A stretch of DNA of 64,000 nucleotides from Escherichia coli (GTDB lineage: Bacteria; Pseudomonadota; Gammaproteobacteria; Enterobacterales; Enterobacteriaceae), in NCBI RefSeq assembly GCF_009931435.1, contig NZ_CP043414.1. The stretch is one strand, 5' to 3'. This document shows, piece after piece, positions 25,334-47,678 of the stretch (within the stretch, counting starts at the first letter, position 1; the number at the start of each line of letters is the position of its first letter). Under the pieces are notes generated by a model. It was given only the letters and a program-made list of their open reading frames with translations. It made no database searches and had not been told where the DNA came from. A program made the translations under genes and the position numbers.

Positions 25334-26023
25334 TTACCCTGCTGCCTGCATAGTGGCCCACCAGTCGGCATCAGCTTCGATCTCGCCTTGCTGATTAACG
25401 TGGGGGTAAGGTAGGCCTTTGCGTTTTGCGACTTTCGCCAGCACCGGATAGCCGCCTTCAAACAACAGCCGTTGTTGCTCCGCTTCCGGCAACATGCTGT
25501 TTTCCCGCAGATACATGCCTGCGTTTTGCCGCTGGCGCTGGGCTTCGTAAAGAATAAGGGCTGAGGCAACGGAAACATTCAGCGACTGCACCATGCCGAT
25601 CATCGGAATGATGATGTCCTGATCCGCCAGGGCTAACGCTTCCTGCGTGATACCCGTTTTCTCCTGTCCCATCAAAATACAGGTCGGGCGGGTATAATCA
25701 ATTTCGCGGAAATCGACAGCGTTATCAGAAAGATGTGTAGCCAGAATCTGCATGCCCTGGCCTTTCAGATGGGCGACGGCATCGCCAATGGTGCGGTGCG
25801 TTTTTACCTGTACCCAACTGTTGCTGCCAGCCGCAGCCGAAGCCATGGTGCGCATCCGGCTGCCAGGCCAGACGGCATGAACTTCATGTACGCCAACGGC
25901 ATCTGCGGTACGAATAATCGCAGAAACGTTATGTGGTTTGTGGACCTGCTCCATGCAGACGGTCAGATCAGGCTGCCGCCTGGCGAGCATTTCGCAGATG
26001 CGTGCATAACGTGTTGGGTTCAT
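25334..26023 (-). CDS. trmH: tRNA (Gm18) 2'-O-methyltransferase TrmH (SpoU)
   Basis: 229-aa product matching TrmH; last gene of the spoT operon before recG. Confidence 0.95.
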   Translation of the reverse strand: MNPTRYARICEMLARRQPDLTVCMEQVHKPHNVSAIIRTADAVGVHEVHAVWPGSRMRTMASAAAGSNSWVQVKTHRTIGDAVAHLKGQGMQILATHLSDNAVDFREIDYTRPTCILMGQEKTGITQEALALADQDIIIPMIGMVQSLNVSVASALILYEAQRQRQNAGMYLRENSMLPEAEQQRLLFEGGYPVLAKVAKRKGLPYPHVNQQGEIEADADWWATMQAAG

Positions 26024-26029
26024 AAAACA

Positions 26030-28138
26030 TTAATTTCGGTTTCGGGTGACTTTAATCACGTCTGGCATCACGCGGATTTTGCGCATGATATTCGCCAGAT
26101 GCACACGGTCACGGGCGGTCAGACGAATAAAGGCGCTGTAGACGCGACCATCTTTCTCTTCCGTATTCAAACTTTGAATATTCGAGGTCGTGGTGTTAAT
26201 TGCCGCCGTCAGGTTTGCCAGCGCGCCCTGATGATTGAACATCTCCACCTTGATTTCGGTGATGAACTCCTGTGCCGTCTCTTTATCCCATTCCACAGCC
26301 ATAAATTTCTCTGGCTCTTTCTGGTAGCCACGGATGTTACGGCAGGATTCATGGTGGATCACCAGACCTTTACCGGGGCTGACGTGAGCGATAATCGGAT
26401 CGCCAGGAATGGGGCGGCAGCATTTCGCAAAGGTGATCAACACGCCATCAGCACCTTTAATCGGCAGATGCCCGTGGCTTTGAGTCGCCGGCGGAATGGA
26501 GGCGTCCCCATGTTGCAGATTTTTCGCGACCACCACGCTCATCGCGTTGCCAAGACCAATTTCCGCCAGCAGATCGTCAAGCGTTGCCAGCTTCATGCGG
26601 TCCAGCTCGCGCTGAATATTTTCCGGCGGGATTTCATTGAGCTTACGGCTGCCACCCAACGCATGATTGAGCAGACGACGGCCCAGGCTTACAGAATCAT
26701 CACGCTTGAGGTTTTTCAGCAACTGACGAATTTTGGCGCGCGCTTTCGAGCTAACGACAAAGTTCAGCCATGCGGCATTCGGGCGAGCGCCCGGTGCGGT
26801 AATGATTTCAACGGTTTGGCCACTGGAGAGCGGCTGCGACAGCGGGTAAGGCTGACGGTCGACGCGAGCGCCCACGCAGGCATGACCGATATCGGTATGC
26901 ACCGCATAAGCGAAGTCGACGGGCGTTGCACCGGCAGGCAGCTCTACAATGCGCCCTTCCGGTGTGAAAACGTAAATCTCATCCGGGAAGAGATCGGATT
27001 TAACGCTCTCGATAAATTCAAATGAGCTACCGGCACTCTGTTGCAGCTCCAGCAGGCTTTGCATCCAGCGCTGGGCGCGAATTTGTGCGGTAGTACTGGT
27101 TTCGCCGTGCTCTTTATAAGCCCAGTGCGCAGCAACACCCATCTCTGCCATCTGATCCATATCTTCGGTACGGATCTGGACCTCAACCGGCACGCCGTGC
27201 GGGCCAATCATCGAGGTGTGCAAAGACTGATAGCCGTTCGCTTTTGGAATAGCGATGTAGTCTTTCACGCGACCCGGACGCGGCTTGTACAGGCTATGCA
27301 TTTGCCCGAGCACGCGATAACAGGTGTCGGAATCATTGACGATCACGCGGAAGGCGTAGATGTCCATGATTGAGTGAAAACGCTGCTCTTTGAGCACCAT
27401 TTTGCAGTAGATCGAATAAAGATGCTTCTCGCGACCACTGACGCGGCACGGTATTCCCGCTTCCTGCAAACGCCCTTCGATTTCCGAGAGGATTTTTTGG
27501 ATCATCTCTTTACGGTTGCCGCGTGCGGCTTTCACCACTTCTTTGATTACGCGGTAACGGTTGGGATACAGCGCCTCAAAACCCAGCTCTTCGAGTTCGG
27601 TTTTAATGTGGTGGATACCTAAACGGTGTGCCAGCGGGCTGTAAATTTCGAGGGTTTCACGGGCGATGCGGCGACGTTTGTCCGGGCGAAGTGAGCCCAG
27701 CGTGCGCATGTTGTGGGTACGGTCGGCAAGTTTGATGAGAATGACGCGGATATCCTGCACCATCGCCATAATCATCTTGCGAAAGTTTTCGGCCTGCGCC
27801 TCTTTCTTATCGCGGAACTTGAGTTTATCAAGCTTTGATACCCCCTCTACCAGTTCGGCGACGCTTTTACCAAAAAGCTGCTCCATGTCCTGGTAGGTGG
27901 CGGGAGTATCTTCAATCACGTCATGCAGCAGCGCCGCCATTAGCGTTTCATAGTCGAGTTTCATCTCGGCCAGAATGCAGGCAACCGCTACCGGGTGCGT
28001 GATATAGGGTTCACCGCTTGAACGTGTTTGCCCCTCGTGAGCATCACGTGCAACGAGATACGCCTGCCGCAGACGCTTGATTTGGTCTTCCGGCAGGTAG
28101 GTTTGAATCAGTTGATTCAGGCTTTCAAACAGATACAA
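26030..28138 (-). CDS. spoT: Bifunctional (p)ppGpp synthetase/hydrolase SpoT
   Basis: 702-aa product; TTG initiation codon (reverse complement of 28136-28138) as known for spoT. Confidence 0.95.
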   Translation of the reverse strand: MYLFESLNQLIQTYLPEDQIKRLRQAYLVARDAHEGQTRSSGEPYITHPVAVACILAEMKLDYETLMAALLHDVIEDTPATYQDMEQLFGKSVAELVEGVSKLDKLKFRDKKEAQAENFRKMIMAMVQDIRVILIKLADRTHNMRTLGSLRPDKRRRIARETLEIYSPLAHRLGIHHIKTELEELGFEALYPNRYRVIKEVVKAARGNRKEMIQKILSEIEGRLQEAGIPCRVSGREKHLYSIYCKMVLKEQRFHSIMDIYAFRVIVNDSDTCYRVLGQMHSLYKPRPGRVKDYIAIPKANGYQSLHTSMIGPHGVPVEVQIRTEDMDQMAEMGVAAHWAYKEHGETSTTAQIRAQRWMQSLLELQQSAGSSFEFIESVKSDLFPDEIYVFTPEGRIVELPAGATPVDFAYAVHTDIGHACVGARVDRQPYPLSQPLSSGQTVEIITAPGARPNAAWLNFVVSSKARAKIRQLLKNLKRDDSVSLGRRLLNHALGGSRKLNEIPPENIQRELDRMKLATLDDLLAEIGLGNAMSVVVAKNLQHGDASIPPATQSHGHLPIKGADGVLITFAKCCRPIPGDPIIAHVSPGKGLVIHHESCRNIRGYQKEPEKFMAVEWDKETAQEFITEIKVEMFNHQGALANLTAAINTTTSNIQSLNTEEKDGRVYSAFIRLTARDRVHLANIMRKIRVMPDVIKVTRNRN

Positions 28139-28156
28139 GGGCGACCCGCTTTGTGA

Positions 28157-28432
28157 TTAACGACGACCTTCAGCAATAGCGGTAACGGCTTGTAATTCAG
28201 CGGCTTCCTGCTCTTGCTGTTCCTGGCGTTCGCGAACGTCGAGGATCTGGTTGTTGATCAGACCTTCTTCGATTTCGCGCAGCGCGATTACGGTGGTTTT
28301 ATCGTTTTCTTCCGGTACCAGCGGATCCTTTCCGCCTACCTGCATCTGACGAGCGCGACGCGCGGCGACCAGTACCAGGTCAAAACGGTTACCAATTTTC
28401 TCTACAGCGTCCTGAACAGTTACGCGTGCCAT
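28157..28432 (-). CDS. rpoZ: RNA polymerase omega subunit
   Basis: 91-aa [29 protein letters not shown]... Confidence 0.97.
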
Positions 28433-28486
28433 ACTTAAAAAGCTCCACAGGTGAAGAAATGACTGGGCATGATACTGAAATCAGGT

Positions 28487-29251
<765 letters not shown>

Positions 29252-29275
29252 GATTCACTGCAATAAAGACGATTC

Positions 29276-31664
<2,389 letters not shown>

Positions 31665-31955
31665 GGTTCTCTCCCTAAAAATCTGTCTGGCAGGGTAGCG
31701 ATTTGTGCGCATTGTCACGATTGAGATTTTTTAAGGTGAGAGGGAATTGATAACTTGTAGTTATGTGAAATTGTTATTTTCTGTAGCGTAGATGCATTCT
31801 TCTGACTTCTTGTCTGAGAAAATGCATAAGAAAAAATAGGTTAAAATTGAGGGGTGGAAAAGAAAGGTGCAATGTTTAGCCATTGTGTTCACCGCACCTG
31901 GACTTTGGCTTACGCATCGGGTATCTCAATCAACAAAAAGAGTTTTTAGTTTCTG

Positions 31956-32780
31956 CTATTTCTTCTCTGTAATTTTTACACTGTTTTCCAACTGCTTGAT
32001 GCTGACCTGCGGGGTCGGCAACTCCTCAGGCATGGTTCCGCCAAGTTCCTGAATGGTTTGCCTCACCTTGCTACCCACGTCAAAGTGTGTGGTATTAGCT
32101 TGCTGTTTTGAATTCACGCCATCCCGCTTGAGTTTTTCTTCTGTTTGGGTAGCTCGAAAGAGATTAGCCGCCAGTTCTGTTGAACCCATATGATCCAGGA
32201 TCTTCTGACTCTTTTTCAGCCCCTTCCGCTGATGGATGGCTTTCTGATCTAATCCACCATACAGTCCCCGGTAACCATGATTCTGAAATATGGCGAAATC
32301 GATAGCTGTCGCTACCCCAGCTTGCTGCGCTGCCTCAACTAATTGTTTGTTATGTTCTTTCAACTCATTTCTCAGAAAAAGACGCTTTTCGTCTTCACGA
32401 AGTTGCCTGAAAGCTTCATCGTCAGCCAGCTCCTGCCGTCGGGTCTGGATAGCAAAATAAGTTTGCCCTGCCGCAATAACCGGTTTCGCAGGGTCGCCGT
32501 TTTGTACTACCAGGTAACAGGCATAGCGGGAGAGTACGATGTCTTTTAATGCTCTTTTGGCATTTGAGCCAATTTTGACCATATCGAGGATCTCCTCGAA
32601 ATGGTCATCAATTGTGTGACCACTATTCAGACAAGCTTCTTTGGCGCGCGTTAATACAGGTATAAAGTGACGATACTCTGAATAACCCAGTAGTTTTCCA
32701 AGTTGTCTTGCTGACCATTGTTCTGCTCCGTTTGCATTAATCAGCTTTATCTCTTCAAAAGGTTGATGATGTTCGTTCAT
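31956..32780 (-). CDS. dinD: DNA damage-inducible protein D
   Basis: Start at MNEHHQPFEEIKLI gives 274 aa; LexA box upstream. Confidence 0.9.
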   Translation of the reverse strand: MNEHHQPFEEIKLINANGAEQWSARQLGKLLGYSEYRHFIPVLTRAKEACLNSGHTIDDHFEEILDMVKIGSNAKRALKDIVLSRYACYLVVQNGDPAKPVIAAGQTYFAIQTRRQELADDEAFRQLREDEKRLFLRNELKEHNKQLVEAAQQAGVATAIDFAIFQNHGYRGLYGGLDQKAIHQRKGLKKSQKILDHMGSTELAANLFRATQTEEKLKRDGVNSKQQANTTHFDVGSKVRQTIQELGGTMPEELPTPQVSIKQLENSVKITEKK

Positions 32781-32825
32781 TGCCCACTCCATGTGATATC
32801 GATTGCAAAGAAAGTAAATCTGCAA

Positions 32826-32841
32826 CTGTATTTATATACAG
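32826..32841 (-). promoter_or_regulatory. LexA operator (SOS box) of dinD
   Basis: CTGTATTTATATACAG, a perfect CTGT-N8-ACAG palindrome, 46 bp upstream of the dinD start. Confidence 0.7.
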
Positions 32842-32933
32842 TTGTGAGTATCTCACGTTCTCAGTGTGCTGGGCAAAAAAACATCGCAAAATCTGGAGCA
32901 GGCACGCAAAACAGAATTGAAGTTGCGGGGAAG

Positions 32934-32966
32934 AAAAATGCCGCTCTGTTTGAGTGGGCGGCATTT
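32934..32966 (-). terminator. Rho-independent terminator downstream of yicC
   Basis: Stem ATGCCGC/GCGGCAT with a T-run following on the minus strand. Confidence 0.5.
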
Positions 32967-33000
32967 GTGAAGGCTGAAAAGTAAGAATTGGCGTTACGAG

Positions 33001-33864
33001 TTATTCAATGTTCTGAATCTGCTCGCGCATCTGCTCAATCAACACTTTCAGCTCAATCGCGGAGTTAGTCACTTCGGCATTGATAGACTTCGAGGCCAGG
33101 GTGTTCGACTCGCGGTTGAACTCCTGCATCATAAAGTCCAGACGACGACCAACGGCTTCTTTTTTCTTCAGAATGTTGTAGGTCTCTTTAACATGCGCTT
33201 CGAGGCGGTCCAACTCTTCGGCAACGTCAATTCGTTGTGCCAGCAGAACCAACTCCTGCTCCAGACGGTTGTTTTCCAGTTGCACCTGGGCGTCTTCCAG
33301 CTTAGCCACCAGACGTTCACGCTGCCATTGCAGGATTTCCGGCATGTGGGCGCGGACTTTGACCACTTCGGCGGTCACGCCTTCCAGACGCTGCTCGATC
33401 AATGCTTTCAGCGCCTGACCTTCGGTTTCGCGCGCGACGATAAAGTCATCCAGCGTACCATCCAGCGCCACGAGAATTTCAGCGGCAATCGCGTCGAGAT
33501 CCTGTTCCTGGGCCGCCATCACGCCTGGCCAGCGGAGAATATCAACCGGGTTGATTTCCCCTTCGTCACTCTGCATTTTTACCCAGTTCGCGGCAGTTAC
33601 CAGCTGTTTAGCCAGTTTTTCGTTGAGGATCAGCTCACCTTGTGCGCTGACATCTGGCTCATAGCGCAGGGTACATTCCACTTTACCACGCGTCAGGCGA
33701 GAACGAATACGCTCGCGAACGACAGGTTCAAGGCTACGGAACTGCTCCGGCAGACGAAAGTAAGTTTCCAGATAACGCTGGTTTACCGAGCGCATTTCCC
33801 AGGTTGCGCTCCCCCATTCACCCTTGATTTCACGCCGGGCGTAGGCGGTCATACTGCGGATCAT
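33001..33864 (-). CDS. yicC: UPF0701 protein YicC
   Basis: 287-aa MIRSMTAYARREIKGEWGSATWEMRSVNQRYLE... Confidence 0.9.
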   Translation of the reverse strand: MIRSMTAYARREIKGEWGSATWEMRSVNQRYLETYFRLPEQFRSLEPVVRERIRSRLTRGKVECTLRYEPDVSAQGELILNEKLAKQLVTAANWVKMQSDEGEINPVDILRWPGVMAAQEQDLDAIAAEILVALDGTLDDFIVARETEGQALKALIEQRLEGVTAEVVKVRAHMPEILQWQRERLVAKLEDAQVQLENNRLEQELVLLAQRIDVAEELDRLEAHVKETYNILKKKEAVGRRLDFMMQEFNRESNTLASKSINAEVTNSAIELKVLIEQMREQIQNIE

Positions 33865-33990
33865 AGACGTTCCTGTTTATAAAAGGAGAGGTGGAAGGAT
33901 TATAGCCATCGATGCCTTGTCAGGATAGGAATAACCGCCGGAAGTCCGTATAATGCGCAGCCACATTTGTTTCAAGCCGGAGATTTCAAT

Positions 33991-34707
33991 ATGCGTCCAG
34001 CAGGCCGTAGCAATAATCAGGTGCGTCCCGTTACCCTGACTCGTAACTATACAAAACATGCAGAAGGCTCGGTGCTGGTCGAATTTGGCGATACCAAAGT
34101 ATTATGTACCGCCTCTATTGAAGAAGGCGTGCCCCGCTTCCTGAAAGGTCAGGGCCAGGGCTGGATCACCGCAGAATACGGTATGCTGCCGCGTTCTACT
34201 CATACCCGTAATGCCCGTGAAGCGGCGAAAGGTAAGCAGGGGGGACGCACAATGGAAATCCAGCGTCTGATCGCCCGTGCTCTTCGCGCGGCAGTAGATT
34301 TGAAAGCGCTGGGTGAGTTCACCATTACGCTGGACTGCGACGTGCTTCAGGCTGATGGTGGCACGCGTACCGCTTCGATTACCGGTGCTTGTGTTGCACT
34401 GGCCGATGCCCTGAATAAACTGGTTGAAAATGGCAAGCTGAAAACCAACCCGATGAAAGGGATGGTAGCCGCGGTTTCTGTCGGGATTGTGAACGGCGAA
34501 GCGGTTTGCGATCTGGAATACGTTGAAGACTCTGCCGCTGAAACGGACATGAACGTGGTGATGACCGAAGACGGGCGCATCATTGAAGTTCAGGGAACGG
34601 CAGAAGGCGAGCCGTTTACCCATGAAGAGCTACTCACCTTGTTGGCGCTGGCCCGAGGGGGAATCGAATCCATTGTAGCGACGCAGAAGGCGGCGCTGGC
34701 AAACTGA
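33991..34707 (+). CDS. rph: Ribonuclease PH, intact (no K-12 rph-1 frameshift)
   Basis: Start at [14 protein letters not shown] gives the full 238 aa ending ...[11 protein letters not shown]. Confidence 0.95.
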
Positions 34708-34712
34708 TTTTT

Positions 34713-34740
34713 AAGGCGACTGATGAGTCGCCTTTTTTTT
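34713..34740 (+). terminator. pyrE attenuator (UTP-sensitive transcription terminator between rph and pyrE)
   Basis: Hairpin GGCGACT-GATG-AGTCGCC followed by T8, placed just after the rph stop and before the pyrE start. Confidence 0.75.
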
Positions 34741-34772
34741 GTCTGTAGAAAAGTAAGATGAGGAGCGAAGGC

Positions 34773-35414
34773 ATGAAACCATATCAGCGCCAGTTTATTG
34801 AATTTGCGCTTGGCAAGCAGGTGTTAAAGTTTGGCGAGTTTACGCTGAAGTCCGGGCGCAAAAGCCCCTATTTCTTCAACGCCGGGCTGTTTAATACCGG
34901 GCGCGATCTGGCACTGTTAGGCCGTTTTTACGCTGAAGCATTGGTGGATTCCGGCATTGAGTTCGATCTGCTGTTTGGCCCTGCTTACAAAGGGATCCCA
35001 ATTGCCACTACTACCGCAGTGGCGCTGGCGGAGCATCATGACCTGGACCTGCCGTACTGCTTTAACCGCAAAGAAGCAAAAGACCACGGTGAAGGCGGCA
35101 ATCTGGTCGGTAGCGCGTTACAAGGACGCGTAATGCTGGTGGATGATGTGATCACCGCCGGAACGGCGATTCGCGAGTCGATGGAAATTATTCAGGCCAA
35201 TGGCGCGACGCTTGCTGGCGTATTGATTTCGCTCGATCGTCAGGAGCGTGGTCGCGGCGAGATTTCGGCAATTCAGGAAGTTGAACGTGATTACAACTGC
35301 AAAGTGATCTCTATCATCACCCTGAAAGACCTGATTGCTTACCTCGAAGAGAAGCCAGAAATGGCGGAACATCTGGCGGCGGTTAAGGCCTACCGCGAAG
35401 AGTTTGGCGTTTAA
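34773..35414 (+). CDS. pyrE: Orotate phosphoribosyltransferase
   Basis: Start at [13 protein letters not shown] gives 213 aa. Confidence 0.95.
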
Positions 35415-35484
35415 AAATATGCGCTGCGCAGGTTTTTACTGTGCGCAGCGTGATGCGGTTTAAGATATCGTGTTAATCTGCTTT

Positions 35485-35678
35485 CGCCAGCAGTGGCAAT
35501 AGCGTTTCCGGCCTTTTATGCCGGGAGGGTCGGCGAGTCGCCGACTTAACGCCAGTAGGTTGTCCAGATACCCAAAGTCGCTCCATTGTACTTAAGTACG
35601 CTTCGCGTACGTCGCGCTGACGCGCTCAGTACAGTTACGCGCCTTCGGGATGGTTTGATGGTATTGCTGCTGTTGGCG
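35485..35678 (+). ncRNA. msr-msd: Retron msr-msd region (template for msDNA), Ec107-like; boundaries approximate
   Basis: Inverted repeats a1 (35485-35501) and a2 (35662-35678) can pair over 17 positions including G-U wobbles; internal perfect stem-loops at 35529-35545 and 35597-35611; lies immediately upstream of the RT gene. Confidence 0.55.
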
Positions 35679-35710
35679 CCTCTTTTGGCCGCCGTGATGT
35701 GGAGAGTGGA

Positions 35711-36670
35711 ATGGATGCTACCCGGATAACCCTTCTGGCGCTCGATTTGTTCGGCTCGCCGGGCTGGAGCGCCGATAAAGAAATACAGCGGCTGTATGCG
35801 CTCAGTAATCATGCCGGACGCCATTACCGACGCATTATTCTTTCTAAACGCCACGGTGGTCAGCGGCTGGTGTTAGCCCCTGATTACTTGCTCAAAACCG
35901 TACAGCGCAACATTCTTAAGAACGTCCTTTCACAATTTCCACTTTCCTCTTTTGCTACCGCCTACCGACAGGGTCGCCCAATCGTCAGCAACGCGCAGCC
36001 TCACTGCCAACAGCCGCAGATCCTTAAACTCGATATCGAAAACTTTTTCGATAGCATTAGCTGGCTACAGGTCTGGCGTGTGTTTAGCCAGACCCAGTTG
36101 CCACGCAATGTGGTAACCATGCTGACCTGGCTTTGTTGCTATAACGACGCGTTACCGCAGGGGGCGCCAACTTCGCCTGCCATTTCCAATCTTGTGATGC
36201 GCCGTTTTGATGAGTGCATAGGGGAATGGTGTCAGGCTCGGGGAATTACCTACACCCGCTACTGCGATGACATGACCTTTTCTGGTCACTTCAATGCCCG
36301 CCAGGTTAAAAATAAAGTATGCGGATTGTTAGCGGAGCTGGGCCTGAGCCTCAATCAACGCAAAAGCTGCCTGATAGCTGCCTGTAAGCGCCAGCAGGTA
36401 ACCGGGATTGTTGTTAATCACAAGCCACAGCTTGCCCGTGAAGCGCGCCGGGCGCTGCGTCAGGAAGTACATTTGTGCCAAAAATATGGCGTTATTTCGC
36501 ATCTTAGTCATCGTGGTGAACTTGATCCTTCTGGCGATCTCCACGCACAGGCAACGGCGTATCTTTATGCTTTGCAGGGAAGAATAAACTGGTTATTGCA
36601 AATCAATCCTGAGGATGAGGCCTTTAAACAGGCGAGGGTGAGTGTAAAGCGAATGCTGGTGGCATGGTAA
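35711..36670 (+). CDS. ret: Retron-type reverse transcriptase (319 aa), consistent with retron-Ec107 RT
   Basis: RT motifs including YCDDMTF (YxDD box); GGAG Shine-Dalgarno 6 nt upstream of the ATG at 35711; inserted between convergent pyrE and slmA. Confidence 0.9.
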   Translation: MDATRITLLALDLFGSPGWSADKEIQRLYALSNHAGRHYRRIILSKRHGGQRLVLAPDYLLKTVQRNILKNVLSQFPLSSFATAYRQGRPIVSNAQPHCQQPQILKLDIENFFDSISWLQVWRVFSQTQLPRNVVTMLTWLCCYNDALPQGAPTSPAISNLVMRRFDECIGEWCQARGITYTRYCDDMTFSGHFNARQVKNKVCGLLAELGLSLNQRKSCLIAACKRQQVTGIVVNHKPQLAREARRALRQEVHLCQKYGVISHLSHRGELDPSGDLHAQATAYLYALQGRINWLLQINPEDEAFKQARVSVKRMLVAW

Positions 36671-36713
36671 GAAAAGCGTCAGGCAGACGTTTCTGCCTGA
36701 ACGTTTGGGAGAA

Positions 36714-37310
36714 TTACTGCAACTGCGCAGCAATTAGCGGCCAGCGGGCGTCAAAGTCATCCGTCGGGCGGTATTTAAACTCGCTGCGGACAAAGCGTGA
36801 CAGCATACCTTCACAGAAGGCCAGGATCTGGCTTGCCAGCAGGGTTTCGTCGGTGGTGTAACCTTCACCCTCACGCATTCTCTTTTCACGCAATACCTGA
36901 CGCAACTGCGCTTCAATACGCTCGAATAGCTGGTTGATGCGCCCTTGCAGGCGATCCTGTTCAAACATTAGTGCATGACCAGTGAGGATGCGGGTCAGGC
37001 CAGGATTACGCTCACCAAAACCGAGAAGCAGCAACACAATCAGACGCAGGCGCGCTGTGGTGTCTTTCTCATCTTTCAGAATCAGATTGATGCGAGTAAT
37101 CAGGCTATCTTCGATAAACTCAATCAGGCTATCGAACATGCGGGTCTTACTGGGGAAGTGGCGATACAGTGCCGCTTCGGAAACGCCGACAGAGGCGGCC
37201 AGTTTTGCCGTCGTGATACGTTGGCTTCCATCGCTGGATTCCAGCATCAGCGCCAGAGACTGAAGTATTTCCTCGCGACGGTTCCTTTTCGCAGTTTGTT
37301 TTTCTGCCAT
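36714..37310 (-). CDS. slmA: Nucleoid occlusion factor SlmA (TetR family)
   Basis: Start at [16 protein letters not shown] gives 198 aa. Confidence 0.95.
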
Positions 37311-37416
37311 GTTACAAAATACCCCTGAAAATAAGCACTTGCCAGGCGGCACCCACGCTATGACCGCAAACGAAATGTTTGCGGCTATGTTATGACGTTA
37401 TTCGGATGCGTATGTG

Positions 37417-37872
37417 TTACTGACGACCAGAGTGACCAAAGCCGCCTTCACCGCGGTCGGTGGCGTCGAAATCTTCCACCAGATTAAATTCAGCCTGTAC
37501 TACCGGAACAAAAATCATCTGGGCGATGCGTTCGCCAGGTTGAATGGTGAAGCTGTCCTGACCACGGTTCCACACGGAAATCATCAACTGGCCCTGATAG
37601 TCAGAATCGATCAATCCTACCAGGTTACCAAGCACGATACCGTGCTTATGTCCCAATCCGGAGCGCGGCAGCATCATTGCCGCCAGTGAAGGATCGGCAA
37701 TATGAATCGCCAGCCCGGTCGGAACCAGCGTAGTGTCACCCGGAGCCAGTTCTACGGCGTCGTCGAGACAGGCACGCAGGTCAAGTCCGGCAGAGCCAGA
37801 GGTGGCATAAGTCGGGAGCGGAAATTCCTTCCCAACGCGCGGGTCCAGAATCTTAACGTCGATTTTTTTCAT
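37417..37872 (-). CDS. dut: dUTP diphosphatase
   Basis: Start at [14 protein letters not shown] gives 151 aa. Confidence 0.95.
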
Positions 37873-39073
37873 CATAACGGGTCACGATCTCGTCGAGTAA
37901 TAATTGGCCAAGGAGCTCTTTGCGCTCAAGCGGTAAGACTTTATCTCCGTCCTGCCAGAAAAGGTGTAATGCGTTGTTGTCGCTGTTAAATCCTTGAGTT
38001 GGCTGGGAAACATCGTTCGCGCAGATCAGATCAAGGTTTTTACGGATACGTTTTTGCCGGGCGTATTCTTCCACATTATTTGTTTCGGCGGCAAATCCAA
38101 CGACGTAGGGTCGATGGTCTTTTAGTGCGGCAACACCAGCGACGATATCGGGGTTTTTAACCATTTTTATTGTTAATTCATCACCCTGCGTGGCCTGCTT
38201 TTTGATTTTCTCTGGGGCTACGGTAGCTGCGCGATAATCCGCCACGGCGGCGCAACCGATAAAAATATTTTGCTGCTGTACAGAAGCATTCACGGCCGCT
38301 TCCATTTCCAGCGCAGTCATCACATCAACACGTTTAACAAACGGTGGCGTCGGTAGTGAAACCGGACCTGATACCAGCGTGACGTTCGCGCCACGACGGG
38401 CAGCGGCGGCGGCGATAGCAAAACCCATCTTGCCTGAGCTGTGATTAGAGATATAACGCACCGGATCGAGCGGTTCACGCGTCGGGCCGGCGGTAATCAT
38501 AATGTTCAGATGTTTCAGGTCGTTGACGGGCGAAAAATGTGCTACCGCCATATCAACAATGGTTAACGGATCGAGCATTCGCCCAGGGCCGATATCACCA
38601 CAAGCCTGACTGCCGCTATCTGGCCCCCAGATGAGCAAACCACGCGAGGCAAGCAGCTCTAAATTATGCTGCGTGGCAGCTGCACGGTACATCTGCTGGT
38701 TCATGGCGGGCAGCACGGCTACAGGCGCAGGTGTAGCCAGGCAAATCGTCGATACCAGGTCATTCGCCATTCCGGCAGCAACACGGGCAATCAAATCTGC
38801 CGTGGCAGGGGCGAGAATCACTAAATCAGCCCATTTACCCAGCTCAATATGGCCCATAGCGGCTTCGGCTGCCGGGTCAAGCAGACTGTCGGAAACGGGA
38901 TACCCCGAAACTGCCTGCAAGCTAAGTGGGGTAATAAAGGCTTTTGCCGCTTCGGTCATGGCTACGCGGACGTCGGCCCCGCGATCGCGCAAACGACGCG
39001 CCAGTTCAGGGGTTTTATAGGCAGCAATACCGCCGCTGACGCCGAGAACGATTTTTTTACCGGCCAGGCTCAT
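37853..39073 (-). CDS. coaBC: Bifunctional phosphopantothenoylcysteine decarboxylase / phosphopantothenate-cysteine ligase
   Basis: Start at [20 protein letters not shown] gives 406 aa (Dfp). Confidence 0.95.
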
Positions 39074-39238
39074 GATGATTTTTCCTGTTGGGTGACACCA
39101 GAAGTTGGCGATTTTATCACAATACTTTTGTTGTCGTGCCTTCACCTGAAAATCACTTTGCGAGGCGCTTTCCAGGATTGAAAACTGACCGTCGATTTAA
39201 CGGAACGGCTATGACAGGATGCGAGCACCACAAAGGAG

Positions 39239-39913
39239 GTGAAGGTGAAAAACAATGCACAGCTGTTGATGCCGCGCGAAAAAATGCTGAAGTTTGGCAT
39301 TGGTGCGTTAACGGATGTTGAGCTGCTGGCGCTATTTCTGCGTACCGGAACGCGCGGTAAAGATGTATTAACCCTGGCAAAAGAGATGCTGGAGAATTTC
39401 GGCTCTCTTTATGGCTTGTTAACCTCTGAATATGAACAATTTAGCGGTGTTCATGGAATTGGTGTGGCGAAGTTCGCTCAGTTAAAGGGGATTGCTGAAC
39501 TGGCGCGGCGTTACTACAACGTGCGGATGCGTGAAGAAAGCCCTTTACTCAGCCCGGAGATGACGAGGGAATTTTTACAAAGCCAGCTCACGGGCGAGGA
39601 GCGGGAGATCTTTATGGTGATCTTTCTCGACTCCCAACACAGGGTTATAACGCATAGCCGTCTTTTTTCCGGCACGCTAAACCATGTTGAAGTCCATCCT
39701 CGGGAAATTATCCGCGAAGCGATAAAAATAAACGCCTCGGCGCTGATCCTTGCACATAATCACCCTTCGGGTTGTGCTGAACCCAGTAAAGCGGATAAAC
39801 TCATTACCGAACGGATAATAAAAAGTTGTCAGTTCATGGATTTACGCGTGCTCGACCATATCGTGATTGGGCGTGGAGAGTATGTTTCTTTTGCCGAACG
39901 CGGCTGGATTTAA
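39239..39913 (+). CDS. yicR: RadC-like JAB-domain protein YicR (UPF0758)
   Basis: 224-aa product with the HNHPSG metalloprotease-like motif; exact start codon uncertain by a few residues. Confidence 0.9.
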
Positions 39914-40108
39914 CCCGCTATGCGCGATCCTTCGGGATCTTTGTCTGTTCGGGACTTGAGCACATCGCTGAGTCAGCGTATACTACGCCACCTTTGAGAA
40001 TCTCGGGTTTGGCATTTGGGCCTGGCAATCGAGAGTTCACATAGAACTGCGATGACCGGGCTGTAAAGCCTGACGAGGCGCCAATACCCCATACGAAGCT
40101 CGAGCTAA

Positions 40109-43264: not shown

Positions 43265-43615
43265 AGTAAATAGCTGACTTATGGATGTGCTGGGGATTCT
43301 ATGTATTTAGCTGTGGCTTTACCATTACTTTTCCCGTTTTTGACTTAAATAGCAATTTACCCGCCAATTCTTGCTGAACATCTATACTTTTTTTGTATTT
43401 TTATGCGATTCATTGATTTCCGCAGTACGTGCAGTAAGGAATCGCGGAGCAACAGTGAAAGAATATTGTTGCTAATGATTTTATTTGATTGATTTCTTTA
43501 TTGAAAAACAACGATGTGCTTAAAAATCATTCGGATCGGATTGCCGCGAAAGAAGTGATACACTAGCGCGTCAATATCAGTACGGTATCAGTATTCAGGT
43601 AGCTGTTGAGCCTGG

Positions 43616-43627
43616 GGCGGTAGCGTG
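43616..43627 (+). promoter_or_regulatory. ops element (within a JUMPstart sequence) in the waaQ operon leader; RfaH recruitment site
   Basis: GGCGGTAGCGTG matches the ops consensus; located about 50 bp upstream of waaQ. Confidence 0.8.
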
Positions 43628-43676: not shown

Positions 43677-44735
43677 GTGGATAAGCCATTTCGAAGAATT
43701 TTGCTCATTAAGATGCGTTTTCATGGGGATATGTTATTAACTACTCCCGTCATTAGTTCGCTGAAAAAAAATTACCCTGACGCAAAAATCGATGTGCTGC
43801 TTTATCAGGATACCATCCCGATTCTGTCTGAAAATCCAGAGATTAACGCGCTCTACGGCATAAAAAATAAAAAAGCAAAAGCCTCAGAAAAAATTTCCAA
43901 CTTTTTTCATCTCATCAAGGTATTACGTGCCAATAAGTATGACCTTATCGTCAATCTTACCGATCAATGGATGGTTGCTATACTGGTTCGCTTATTAAAT
44001 GCCCGTGTGAAAATTTCCCAGGATTATCATCATCGGCAGTCTGCTTTTTGGCGTAAAAGCTTCACCCATCTGGTGCCGTTGCAGGGTGGAAATGTGGTGG
44101 AAAGTAACTTATCCGTGCTGACGCCACTGGGTCTCGAATCGTTGGTGAAGCAGACAACCATGAGTTACCCGCCTGCAAGCTGGAAACGAATGCGTCGCGA
44201 ACTTGATCACGCAGGTGTTGGACAAAATTATGTGGTTATCCAACCTACCGCGCGGCAAATCTTTAAATGCTGGGACAACGCCAAGTTTTCCGCTGTGATT
44301 GATGCCTTACATACACGTGGCTATGAAGTCGTTCTGACGTCCGGCCCGGATAAAGACGATCTGGCCTGCGTCAATGAAATTGCGCAGGGATGCCAGACGC
44401 CACCAGTAACGGCGTTGGCCGGAAAGGTAACCTTCCCGGAACTTGGTGCGTTAATCGATCATGCGCAGCTGTTTATTGGCGTTGATTCCGCACCGGCGCA
44501 CATTGCCGCTGCAGTTAATACGCCGCTGATATCGCTGTTTGGTGCGACAGACCATATTTTCTGGCGTCCCTGGTCAAATAACATGATTCAATTCTGGGCT
44601 GGAGATTACCGGGAAATGCCAACACGCGATCAGCGTGACCGAAATGAGATGTATCTTTCGGTTATTCCGGCGGCAGATGTCATTGCAGCTGTCGATAAAT
44701 TACTTCCCTCCTCCACGACAGGTACGTCGTTATGA
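43677..44735 (+). CDS. waaQ: LPS heptosyltransferase III
   Basis: Heptosyltransferase N-terminus (RILLIKMRFHGDMLLTTP, compare WaaC MRVLIVKTSSMGDVLHT); GTG start at 43677 assumed, true start may be a few codons downstream. Confidence 0.9.
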   Translation: MDKPFRRILLIKMRFHGDMLLTTPVISSLKKNYPDAKIDVLLYQDTIPILSENPEINALYGIKNKKAKASEKISNFFHLIKVLRANKYDLIVNLTDQWMVAILVRLLNARVKISQDYHHRQSAFWRKSFTHLVPLQGGNVVESNLSVLTPLGLESLVKQTTMSYPPASWKRMRRELDHAGVGQNYVVIQPTARQIFKCWDNAKFSAVIDALHTRGYEVVLTSGPDKDDLACVNEIAQGCQTPPVTALAGKVTFPELGALIDHAQLFIGVDSAPAHIAAAVNTPLISLFGATDHIFWRPWSNNMIQFWAGDYREMPTRDQRDRNEMYLSVIPAADVIAAVDKLLPSSTTGTSL

Positions 44736-46661: not shown

Positions 46662-47678
46662 ATGAGTGCCCACTATTTTAATCCACAAGAGATGATCAAT
46701 AAGACAATCATCTTCGATGAAAGGCCAGAGGCGTCAGTGGCATCATCATTCCATGTTGCTTATGGCATTGATAAAAACTTTCTTTTTGGTTGTGGTGTTT
46801 CAATCACGTCAGTTTTGTTACATAACAACGACGTGAGTTTTGTCTTCCACGTTTTTATTGATGATATCCCTGACGCCGATATCCAGCGTTTATCCCAATT
46901 GGCGAAAAGCTATCATACCTGTATCCAGATCCATCTGGTAAATTGTGAACGGCTTAAGGTATTACCGACGACCAAAAATTGGTCTATTGCCATGTATTTC
47001 CGTTTTGTAATTGCAGATTACTTTATTGATCAACAAGATAAGATCCTGTACCTGGATGCTGATATCGCCTGTCAGGGAACCTTAAAACCGCTGATAACAA
47101 TGGATCTTGCCAATAACGTTGCTGCTGTTGTTACTGAACGCGATGCTAACTGGTGGTCGTTACGGGCTCAAAGTCTGCAGTGTAATGAACTTGAAAAGGG
47201 TTACTTTAATTCAGGTGTCCTGTTAATTAATACACTAGCGTGGGCGCAGGAGTCCGTTTCTGCTAAAGCGATGTCGATGCTTGCTGATAAAGCCGTCGTT
47301 TCCCGTTTAACCTATATGGATCAAGATATACTAAATCTTATCCTGTTAGGGAAAGTTAAATTCATTGATGCTAAATACAATACGCAATTTAGTTTAAATT
47401 ATGAATTAAAAAAATCATTTATTTGTCCAATTAATGATGAAACCGTATTAATTCATTATGTCGGCCCGACAAAACCCTGGCATTACTGGGCCGGTTATCC
47501 AAGCGCGCAGCCATTTATCAAAGCCAAAGAAGCATCGCCATGGAAAAATGAACCGTTAATGCGGCCAATTAACTCAAATTATGCTCGTTATTGCGCTAAG
47601 CATAATTTTAAACAAAATAAACCAATTAACGGGATAATGAATTATATTTATTATTTTTATTTAAAGATAATAAAATGA
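46662..47678 (+). CDS. waaO: GT8-family LPS outer-core glycosyltransferase; by position the R1-type WaaO
   Basis: 338-aa GT8 protein (DxD, YFNSGVLLIN motifs) immediately after waaP; AT-rich. Confidence 0.7.
   Translation: MSAHYFNPQEMINKTIIFDERPEASVASSFHVAYGIDKNFLFGCGVSITSVLLHNNDVSFVFHVFIDDIPDADIQRLSQLAKSYHTCIQIHLVNCERLKVLPTTKNWSIAMYFRFVIADYFIDQQDKILYLDADIACQGTLKPLITMDLANNVAAVVTERDANWWSLRAQSLQCNELEKGYFNSGVLLINTLAWAQESVSAKAMSMLADKAVVSRLTYMDQDILNLILLGKVKFIDAKYNTQFSLNYELKKSFICPINDETVLIHYVGPTKPWHYWAGYPSAQPFIKAKEASPWKNEPLMRPINSNYARYCAKHNFKQNKPINGIMNYIYYFYLKIIK

What the first reader, a model, noticed from the sequence alone, without database searches (positions are those of the whole stretch)
32826..32841. 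Perfect LexA box upstream of dinD
CTGTATTTATATACAG lies 46 bp upstream of the dinD start and fits the CTGT-N8-ACAG SOS operator. This confirms SOS control of dinD in this strain.
Basis: partly seen in the sequence, partly recalled or inferred. Interest (0 to 1): 0.15.

Follow-up and report, generated by a model that had tools for sequence, protein, structure and literature searches.

The report
Known LexA operator of dinD
This is the well-known binding site where the LexA repressor switches off the DNA-damage gene dinD; it is base-for-base the same as in laboratory E. coli K-12, so the finding is correct but ordinary.

Summary
The motif CTGTATTTATATACAG is at window 32826-32841 as reported. 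dinD lies on the minus strand (ATG at 32780). Read on that strand, the 20-mer is AACTGTATATAAATACAGTT (32843-32824). This is identical to the published K-12 dinD LexA box (heterology index 2.2) and sits in the same yicC-dinD-yicG-ligB neighbourhood.

I built a heterology-index matrix from 17 other K-12 LexA boxes. It scores the site 2.95. The next best site in the 64 kb scores 10.9, no dinucleotide shuffle out of 300 reached 2.95, and about 1e-4 such sites are expected per window.

The bare CTGT-N8-ACAG pattern is not significant alone. A second match at 44535 lies inside an ORF and scores 18-22.

The same box plus its upstream flank occurs once per chromosome in 3350 of 5426 complete E. coli genomes. 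A one-base variant occurs in 808 more.

In K-12, dinD is induced 9.8-fold by AZT, with 12-fold lexA dependence. The promoter and transcription start are inferred only.

Verdict: already known, low interest.

By-products: ISL3-family insertions exactly in the box spacer in about 275 other genomes, a dimorphic DinD N-terminus, and DinD relatives inside type I restriction-modification operons that mostly lack LexA boxes.

The parts
32826..32841 (-). LexA box core, CTGTATATAAATACAG on the dinD strand (CTGT-N8-ACAG)
   Evidence: Identical to the K-12, O157 and PE164 boxes and to the published K-12 dinD box (PMC3009722).
32824..32843 (-). Full 20-bp LexA operator AACTGTATATAAATACAGTT: two perfect 8-bp inverted arms (AACTGTAT / ATACAGTT) around ATAA
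   Evidence: HI-like 2.95 with dinD left out and 2.14 with it included; published HI 2.2. 0 of 300 shuffles reach this score.
32823..32823 (-). Single-base difference from K-12 just outside the 20-mer (G here, A in K-12: CAGTTGCAG against CAGTTACAG)
   Evidence: The exact 56-mer with this base is found in 427 E. coli genomes. It lies outside the positions scored for LexA, and no effect is expected (inference).
31956..32780 (-). dinD coding sequence (274 aa plus stop), K-12-type allele, Bro-N domain at residues 10-105
   Evidence: 98% identical to K-12 DinD. Pfam Bro-N match. Annotated as dinD in matching genomes.
32787..32790 (-). GGAG ribosome-binding site, 6 nt before the dinD ATG
   Evidence: Read directly from the sequence; invariant in the alignment.
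32847..32876 (-). Candidate dinD promoter: TTGCCC (32876-32871), 18-nt spacer, TGaGATACT (-10 hexamer 32852-32847). This would put the start near 32840, inside the box. INFERRED only.
   Evidence: Relaxed hexamer search. The stricter consensus scan found no promoter. The alternative -10, TATAAA (32836-32831, 5 of 6), lies inside the box.
32932..32966 (-). Terminator-like hairpin plus U-run after yicC, separating dinD from upstream transcription
   Evidence: Fold gives -12.4 kcal/mol, z = -3.99, 0 of 200 shuffles as stable. The simple scan missed it because the loop is 13 nt.
33001..33864 (-). yicC, the upstream neighbour on the same strand (context)

Best explanation
This is the SOS operator of dinD.

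In undamaged cells a LexA dimer binds the two CTGT/ACAG half-sites of AACTGTATATAAATACAGTT. Each winged-helix domain reads one half-site, and the AT-rich 8-bp spacer sets the spacing. The box lies 45 nt upstream of the dinD ATG and overlaps the likely -10/start region of the dinD promoter, so bound LexA keeps RNA polymerase off.

After DNA damage, RecA filaments on single-stranded DNA stimulate LexA self-cleavage. The operator is vacated and dinD is transcribed. The box is very close to consensus (HI about 2-3, among the tightest in the regulon), so dinD should be tightly repressed. By the usual HI logic it should also be derepressed late or only at low LexA levels.

Shown here: the site, its position, its identity with K-12, its matrix score and its conservation.
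Taken from the literature on K-12: damage induction and lexA dependence.
Inferred: the promoter overlap, and that the same regulation operates in this strain.
For: - The site is present and identical to the K-12 dinD box.
- It is syntenic, lying between the yicC terminator and dinD.
- Its HI-like score is 2.95 against 10.9 for the next site. No shuffle out of 300 reaches it, and about 1e-4 are expected per window.
- It occurs once per chromosome in 3350 of 5426 E. coli genomes, plus 808 with a one-base variant that still scores 3.32.
- K-12 dinD has HI 2.2, is induced 9.8-fold by AZT and shows 12-fold lexA3 dependence (PMC11228462).
- RT-qPCR in lexA71::Tn5 and lexA3 mutants confirms LexA dependence (PMC3009722).
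- dinD is listed among genes with known SOS boxes (PMC6590174).
- Both candidate -10 elements place the box over the -10 or the transcription start.
Against: - Nothing in the window tests binding or induction in this strain, and lexA and recA lie outside it.
- No consensus sigma-70 promoter was found by the standard scan, so the operator-promoter geometry rests on weak hexamer matches.
- The dinD transcription start could not be retrieved from the held literature.
- The window comes from a lineage about 97% identical to typical E. coli, so transfer of K-12 data is an extrapolation, though a short one.
Confidence: 0.95

Rival explanations
1. The palindrome is a chance AT-rich match to CTGT-N8-ACAG with no regulatory role.
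For: The bare pattern is not enriched: 2 found, 0.53 expected, and 10 of 100 shuffles gave 2 or more. A second match at 44535 is clearly not a LexA site.
Against: The full 20-mer scores 2.95 and about 1e-4 such sites are expected per window; 0 of 300 shuffles reach it. It is identical to an operator with published LexA-dependent behaviour. It is conserved at the same place in thousands of genomes.
Confidence: 0.01
2. The operator is intact but dinD is not effectively SOS-regulated in this strain, for example because the promoter is weak or altered, or because the LexA/RecA circuit differs.
For: No consensus promoter was found. There is one SNP next to the box (32823). The lineage is divergent, about 97% identical to most E. 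coli. lexA and recA were not seen.
Against: The whole 220-bp intergenic region is 98% identical to K-12, O157 and PE164, including both candidate promoters and the RBS. The SNP lies outside the 20-mer and is shared by 427 genomes. dinD itself is intact.
Confidence: 0.03
3. The box acts mainly as something other than a repressor site: as the -10 element itself (TATAAA lies inside it), or as a preferred ISL3 target.
For: TATAAA (5 of 6) is the only strong -10-like hexamer in the region and lies inside the box. ISL3-family elements have inserted exactly into the 8-bp spacer in about 275 genomes.
Against: These roles are compatible with operator function and do not replace it. A -10 inside an operator is a common SOS arrangement (established knowledge). 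IS targeting is a consequence of the AT-rich palindrome, not a function. There is no IS in the window.
Confidence: 0.01

Closest known systems
E. coli K-12 dinD (pcsA) LexA box, AACTGTATATAAATACAGTT, HI 2.2
   Same: Identical 20-mer, the same distance to the same ATG, the same flanking genes, and 98% identity over the intergenic region. It is the same element in another strain.
   Different: One base just outside the 20-mer (G at 32823 instead of A). DinD differs from K-12 at about 2% of residues. The host is a divergent Escherichia lineage.
Other near-consensus E. coli SOS boxes (umuDC and sbmC TACTGTATATAAAAACAGTA; recN TACTGTATATAAAACCAGTT)
   Same: The same CTGT-N8-ACAG architecture with a TA-rich spacer and a similarly low heterology index.
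   Different: They have different outer bases (TA...TA rather than AA...TT) and control different genes.
Variant dinD box of many E. coli (e.g. W224N, IAI39): CTGTATATAAACACAG
   Same: Same locus and same half-sites. HI-like score is 3.32 against 2.95. Found in 808 genomes.
   Different: T to C in the spacer. The window carries the K-12-type box.

Membership tests
Gammaproteobacterial LexA operator (SOS box) | Inverted half-sites CTGT and ACAG separated by 8 bp | tested here: met
   Exact match at 32826-32841.
Gammaproteobacterial LexA operator (SOS box) | Good fit of the whole 20-mer to a matrix of proven LexA sites (low heterology index) | tested here: met
   HI-like 2.95 from 17 other K-12 boxes, ranking 5th of 18. 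Published HI is 2.2. No shuffle out of 300 is as good.
Gammaproteobacterial LexA operator (SOS box) | Lies in a promoter region, overlapping or adjoining the -35/-10/start of the regulated gene | tested here: inconclusive
   The box is intergenic, 45 nt before the dinD ATG and downstream of the yicC terminator. Candidate promoters overlap it, but the consensus scan found none and no mapped start could be retrieved.
Gammaproteobacterial LexA operator (SOS box) | LexA protein binds the site | not testable with these tools
   Needs EMSA, footprinting or ChIP. From my own knowledge, LexA binding at K-12 dinD has been reported (Lewis et al. 1994; Wade et al. 2005), but neither paper was held.
Gammaproteobacterial LexA operator (SOS box) | The downstream gene is induced by DNA damage in a lexA/recA-dependent way | not testable with these tools
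   Shown for K-12 with the identical box (PMC11228462; PMC3009722). Not measurable for this strain.
Orthologue of the K-12 dinD operator | Same sequence at the same position in the syntenic yicC-dinD interval | tested here: met
   Alignment with MG1655 shows the 20-mer identical and the region 98% identical. Gene order ligB-yicG-dinD-yicC-rph-pyrE is preserved.

The most novel reading that the evidence does not exclude
The box itself is textbook. The least ordinary reading that the evidence leaves open concerns what it is attached to.

dinD belongs to a horizontally mobile family. Homologues at 63-80% identity occur across distant phyla. Most of them sit inside type I restriction-modification operons, and the family matches the PADLOC phage-defence candidate PDC-S13. 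Only 4 of 80 non-Escherichia homologue loci carry a LexA box.

On this reading, the Escherichia LexA box is a lineage-specific rewiring that puts a defence or R-M-associated gene under DNA-damage control. The AT-rich spacer of the box is also a recurrent ISL3 landing site that disconnects the gene in about 5% of E. coli genomes.
Probability: 0.3. Interest if true: 0.35.

Novelty: already known. Interest (0 to 1): 0.06.

Why it matters
The finding matters little in itself. It is a correct annotation of a classic SOS operator, useful only as a check that this strain keeps dinD under the expected control. dinD::lacZ fusions are standard SOS reporters. The by-products may be worth a short look by someone working on DinD or on SOS regulon evolution: IS insertions that split the operator, the two N-terminal alleles of DinD, and the link between the DinD family and type I R-M operons.

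Tried and rejected
- The standard promoter/terminator scan of 32650-33050 found nothing. A relaxed hexamer search gave only weak candidates. The yicC terminator had to be shown by folding.
- The original dinD papers were not held: Lundegaard and Jensen 1994; Ohmori et al. 1995, PMC176568; Wade et al. 2005, PMC1276735.
- Transcription-start tables gave nothing: no supplements for PMC4161252, and no dinD entry in PMC3415461. Literature searches for a dinD promoter or start site also found nothing useful.
- The second CTGT-N8-ACAG, at 44535-44550, was rejected. It lies inside the 43677-44735 ORF, has a G+C-rich spacer and scores 18-22.
- The next best matrix hit, 47218-47237 (10.9), lies inside an ORF and is at the level expected by chance, about 0.9 per window at a score of 11 or better.
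- Phylogenetic footprinting with the Citrobacter werkmanii dinD region failed. That upstream region is not homologous, although it has its own LexA box.
- Rfam found no RNA family near the site.

Full report
**Observation.** The sequence CTGTATTTATATACAG is at window 32826-32841. The gene it precedes is on the minus strand. The mechanical ORF 31956-32825 begins at a TTG, but the real start is the ATG at 32780 (MNEHHQPFEE...). RefSeq annotates the same start for dinD in K-12 MG1655 and other strains. The promoter-proximal end of the box (32826) is 46 positions from the A of the ATG, with 45 nt between them, so the stated distance is right. On the dinD strand the 20-bp operator reads AACTGTATATAAATACAGTT (32843-32824). 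It consists of two perfect 8-bp inverted arms around ATAA. It has three mismatches to the ideal TACTG(TA)5CAGTA, at positions 1, 12 and 20. 'Perfect' therefore describes the CTGT-N8-ACAG core only.

**Chance.** The bare pattern is not informative. It occurs twice in the window against 0.53 expected, and 10 of 100 shuffles gave two or more matches. I built a heterology-index-type matrix (Berg-von Hippel form, as used for LexA) from the 17 other K-12 LexA boxes listed in Table 4 of PMC3009722, leaving dinD out.
- The site scores 2.95, or 2.14 with dinD included. The published HI is 2.2 (PMC11228462). It ranks fifth of the 18 K-12 boxes.
- The next best site in the 64 kb scores 10.9.
- None of 300 dinucleotide-preserving shuffles reached 2.95 (mean minimum 11.05, lowest 5.04).
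- The exact expectation is about 1e-4 sites per window and 0.008 per 4.6-Mb genome.
- The other CTGT-N8-ACAG, at 44535, lies inside an ORF, has a G+C-rich spacer and scores 18-22.

**Identity.** The window carries ligB, yicG, dinD, yicC, rph and pyrE in the E. coli order. The yicC-dinD intergenic region is 98% identical to K-12, O157:H7 and strain PE164, and the 20-mer is identical in all of them. It is also identical to the K-12 dinD box printed in PMC3009722, ACAACTGTATATAAATACAGTTACA. The only nearby difference from K-12 is one base just outside the 20-mer (G at 32823, minus strand). The exact 56-mer with this base is found in 427 complete E. coli genomes. The box plus 10 nt of upstream flank occurs exactly once, always on the chromosome, in 3350 of 5426 complete genomes. 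A variant with one spacer change (CTGTATATAAACACAG, score 3.32) occurs in 808 more. DinD is intact, 274 aa and 98% identical to K-12.

**Mechanism.** Established knowledge of the SOS system (summarised in PMC6590174) is as follows. A LexA dimer occupies the box and represses transcription. RecA bound to single-stranded DNA triggers LexA self-cleavage, and the gene is derepressed. Lower HI means tighter binding.

For K-12 dinD, which has this same box, RNA-seq shows 9.8-fold induction by AZT and a 12-fold dependence on cleavable LexA (PMC11228462). RT-qPCR in lexA(Def) and lexA(Ind-) strains confirmed LexA dependence (PMC3009722).

The exact operator-promoter geometry is not shown here. A hairpin with a U-run at 32966-32932 (-12.4 kcal/mol, z = -4) ends yicC transcription, so dinD needs its own promoter in the 150 nt that follow. 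The strict consensus scan found none. A relaxed search gives two candidates:
- TTGCCC (32876-32871), an 18-nt spacer, then TGaGATACT (32852-32847), which would start transcription near 32840, inside the box.
- TATAAA (32836-32831), the only 5-of-6 match to a -10 hexamer in the region, which lies within the box.

Either way the box covers the -10 or the start site, so bound LexA would occlude RNA polymerase. This step is inference. I could not retrieve a mapped start.

**Limits.** Sequence identity predicts SOS control in this strain but does not confirm it, and lexA and recA are outside the window. The window is about 97.1% identical to most E. coli and 98.9% identical to one strain (2020CK-00188) over 14 kb. 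It therefore comes from a somewhat divergent Escherichia lineage, and the K-12 data are a short extrapolation.

**Wider context (not part of the finding).** A scan of one genome per species found DinD homologues at 63-80% identity in very distant phyla. Only 4 of the 80 loci kept have a good gamma-type LexA box within 300 bp upstream: Citrobacter werkmanii, Cupriavidus, Paraburkholderia and Burkholderia. Loci from Yersinia, Photorhabdus, Enterobacter, Klebsiella, Morganella, Providencia and Pseudomonas do not.

Many of the homologues lie inside type I restriction-modification operons, between hsdM and hsdS or between hsdS and hsdR. DinD matches the PADLOC models PDC-S13 and a 'Specificity_I' model. 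SOS control therefore looks like a lineage-specific feature of the Escherichia copy, not of the family.

Within E. coli, the N-terminal Bro-N part of DinD (residues 12-83) exists in two very different forms, while the rest of the protein is nearly identical. ISL3-family insertion sequences have landed exactly in the 8-bp spacer of the box, duplicating it, in about 275 genomes.

**Verdict.** The element is already known and of low interest.

Noticed in passing
Not in the window; the equivalent of window 32830-32837. L087 (E. coli IAI39) 6838-6850 and 8720-8735; L005 (WP8-S18-CRE-02) 1220-1245: ISL3-family insertion sequences sit exactly in the 8-bp spacer of the dinD LexA box and duplicate it. 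The junctions read CTGTATATAAAC|GGGTCTTCCCC...GGGGAAGACCC|ATATAAACACAG. The element is ISEc53 with a ClbS/DfsB-family passenger gene in IAI39, and ISKox3 in the opposite orientation in WP8. Junction 30-mers are found in 270 genomes (K-12-type box) plus 5 (C-variant box) of 5426. These insertions split the operator and separate dinD from its upstream region.
   Followed up: yes
window 32532-32747 (dinD codons 12-83), compared with L003 and L004: DinD is dimorphic in E. coli. The N-terminal Bro-N region differs strongly between a K-12-type allele (window, K-12, PE164) and an O157/W224N-type allele, while residues 84-274 are at least 97% identical. Only 1656 of 4855 genomes match the window across this stretch by megablast. 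It looks like a recombined cassette.
   Followed up: partly
L007-L086 (DinD homologues from other species): DinD homologues at 63-80% identity occur in Chlamydiota, Bacteroidota, Campylobacterota, Spirochaetota and other phyla. They are often nested in type I R-M operons (hsdM-dinD-hsdS, hsdS-dinD-hsdR). DinD matches the PADLOC candidate defence family PDC-S13. Only 4 of 80 loci have a LexA box upstream. In Paraburkholderia the gene lies between mnmE and an integrase.
   Followed up: partly
window 35699-36670 (+): An intact 323-aa reverse transcriptase lies between pyrE and slmA. It matches the PADLOC model RT_Ec107-like (retron) at E = 2e-132. The corresponding gene is a pseudogene in strains 2020CK-00188 and IAI39. 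The msr/msd RNA was not looked for, and Rfam reported nothing there.
   Followed up: partly
window 26000-40000: This stretch is only about 97.1% identical to most complete E. coli genomes and 98.9% identical to a single strain (2020CK-00188). That suggests a divergent Escherichia lineage. The closest strain carries the other dinD allele.
   Followed up: no
window 33991-34707 (+): rph is full length (238 aa from MRPAGR...), so it appears to lack the frameshift that truncates RNase PH in K-12 MG1655.
   Followed up: no
window 6977-7067 (-) and 43589-43627 (+): Rfam finds a selenocysteine tRNA (selC, a common island integration site) and a JUMPstart element in front of the 43677-44735 ORF. That ORF is presumably the start of the waa core-LPS operon.
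   Followed up: no
window 47218-47237: The second-best LexA-matrix hit, TAGTGTATTAATTAACAGGA (score 10.9), lies inside the 46662-47678 ORF. It is at the level expected by chance, about 0.9 per window.
   Followed up: partly
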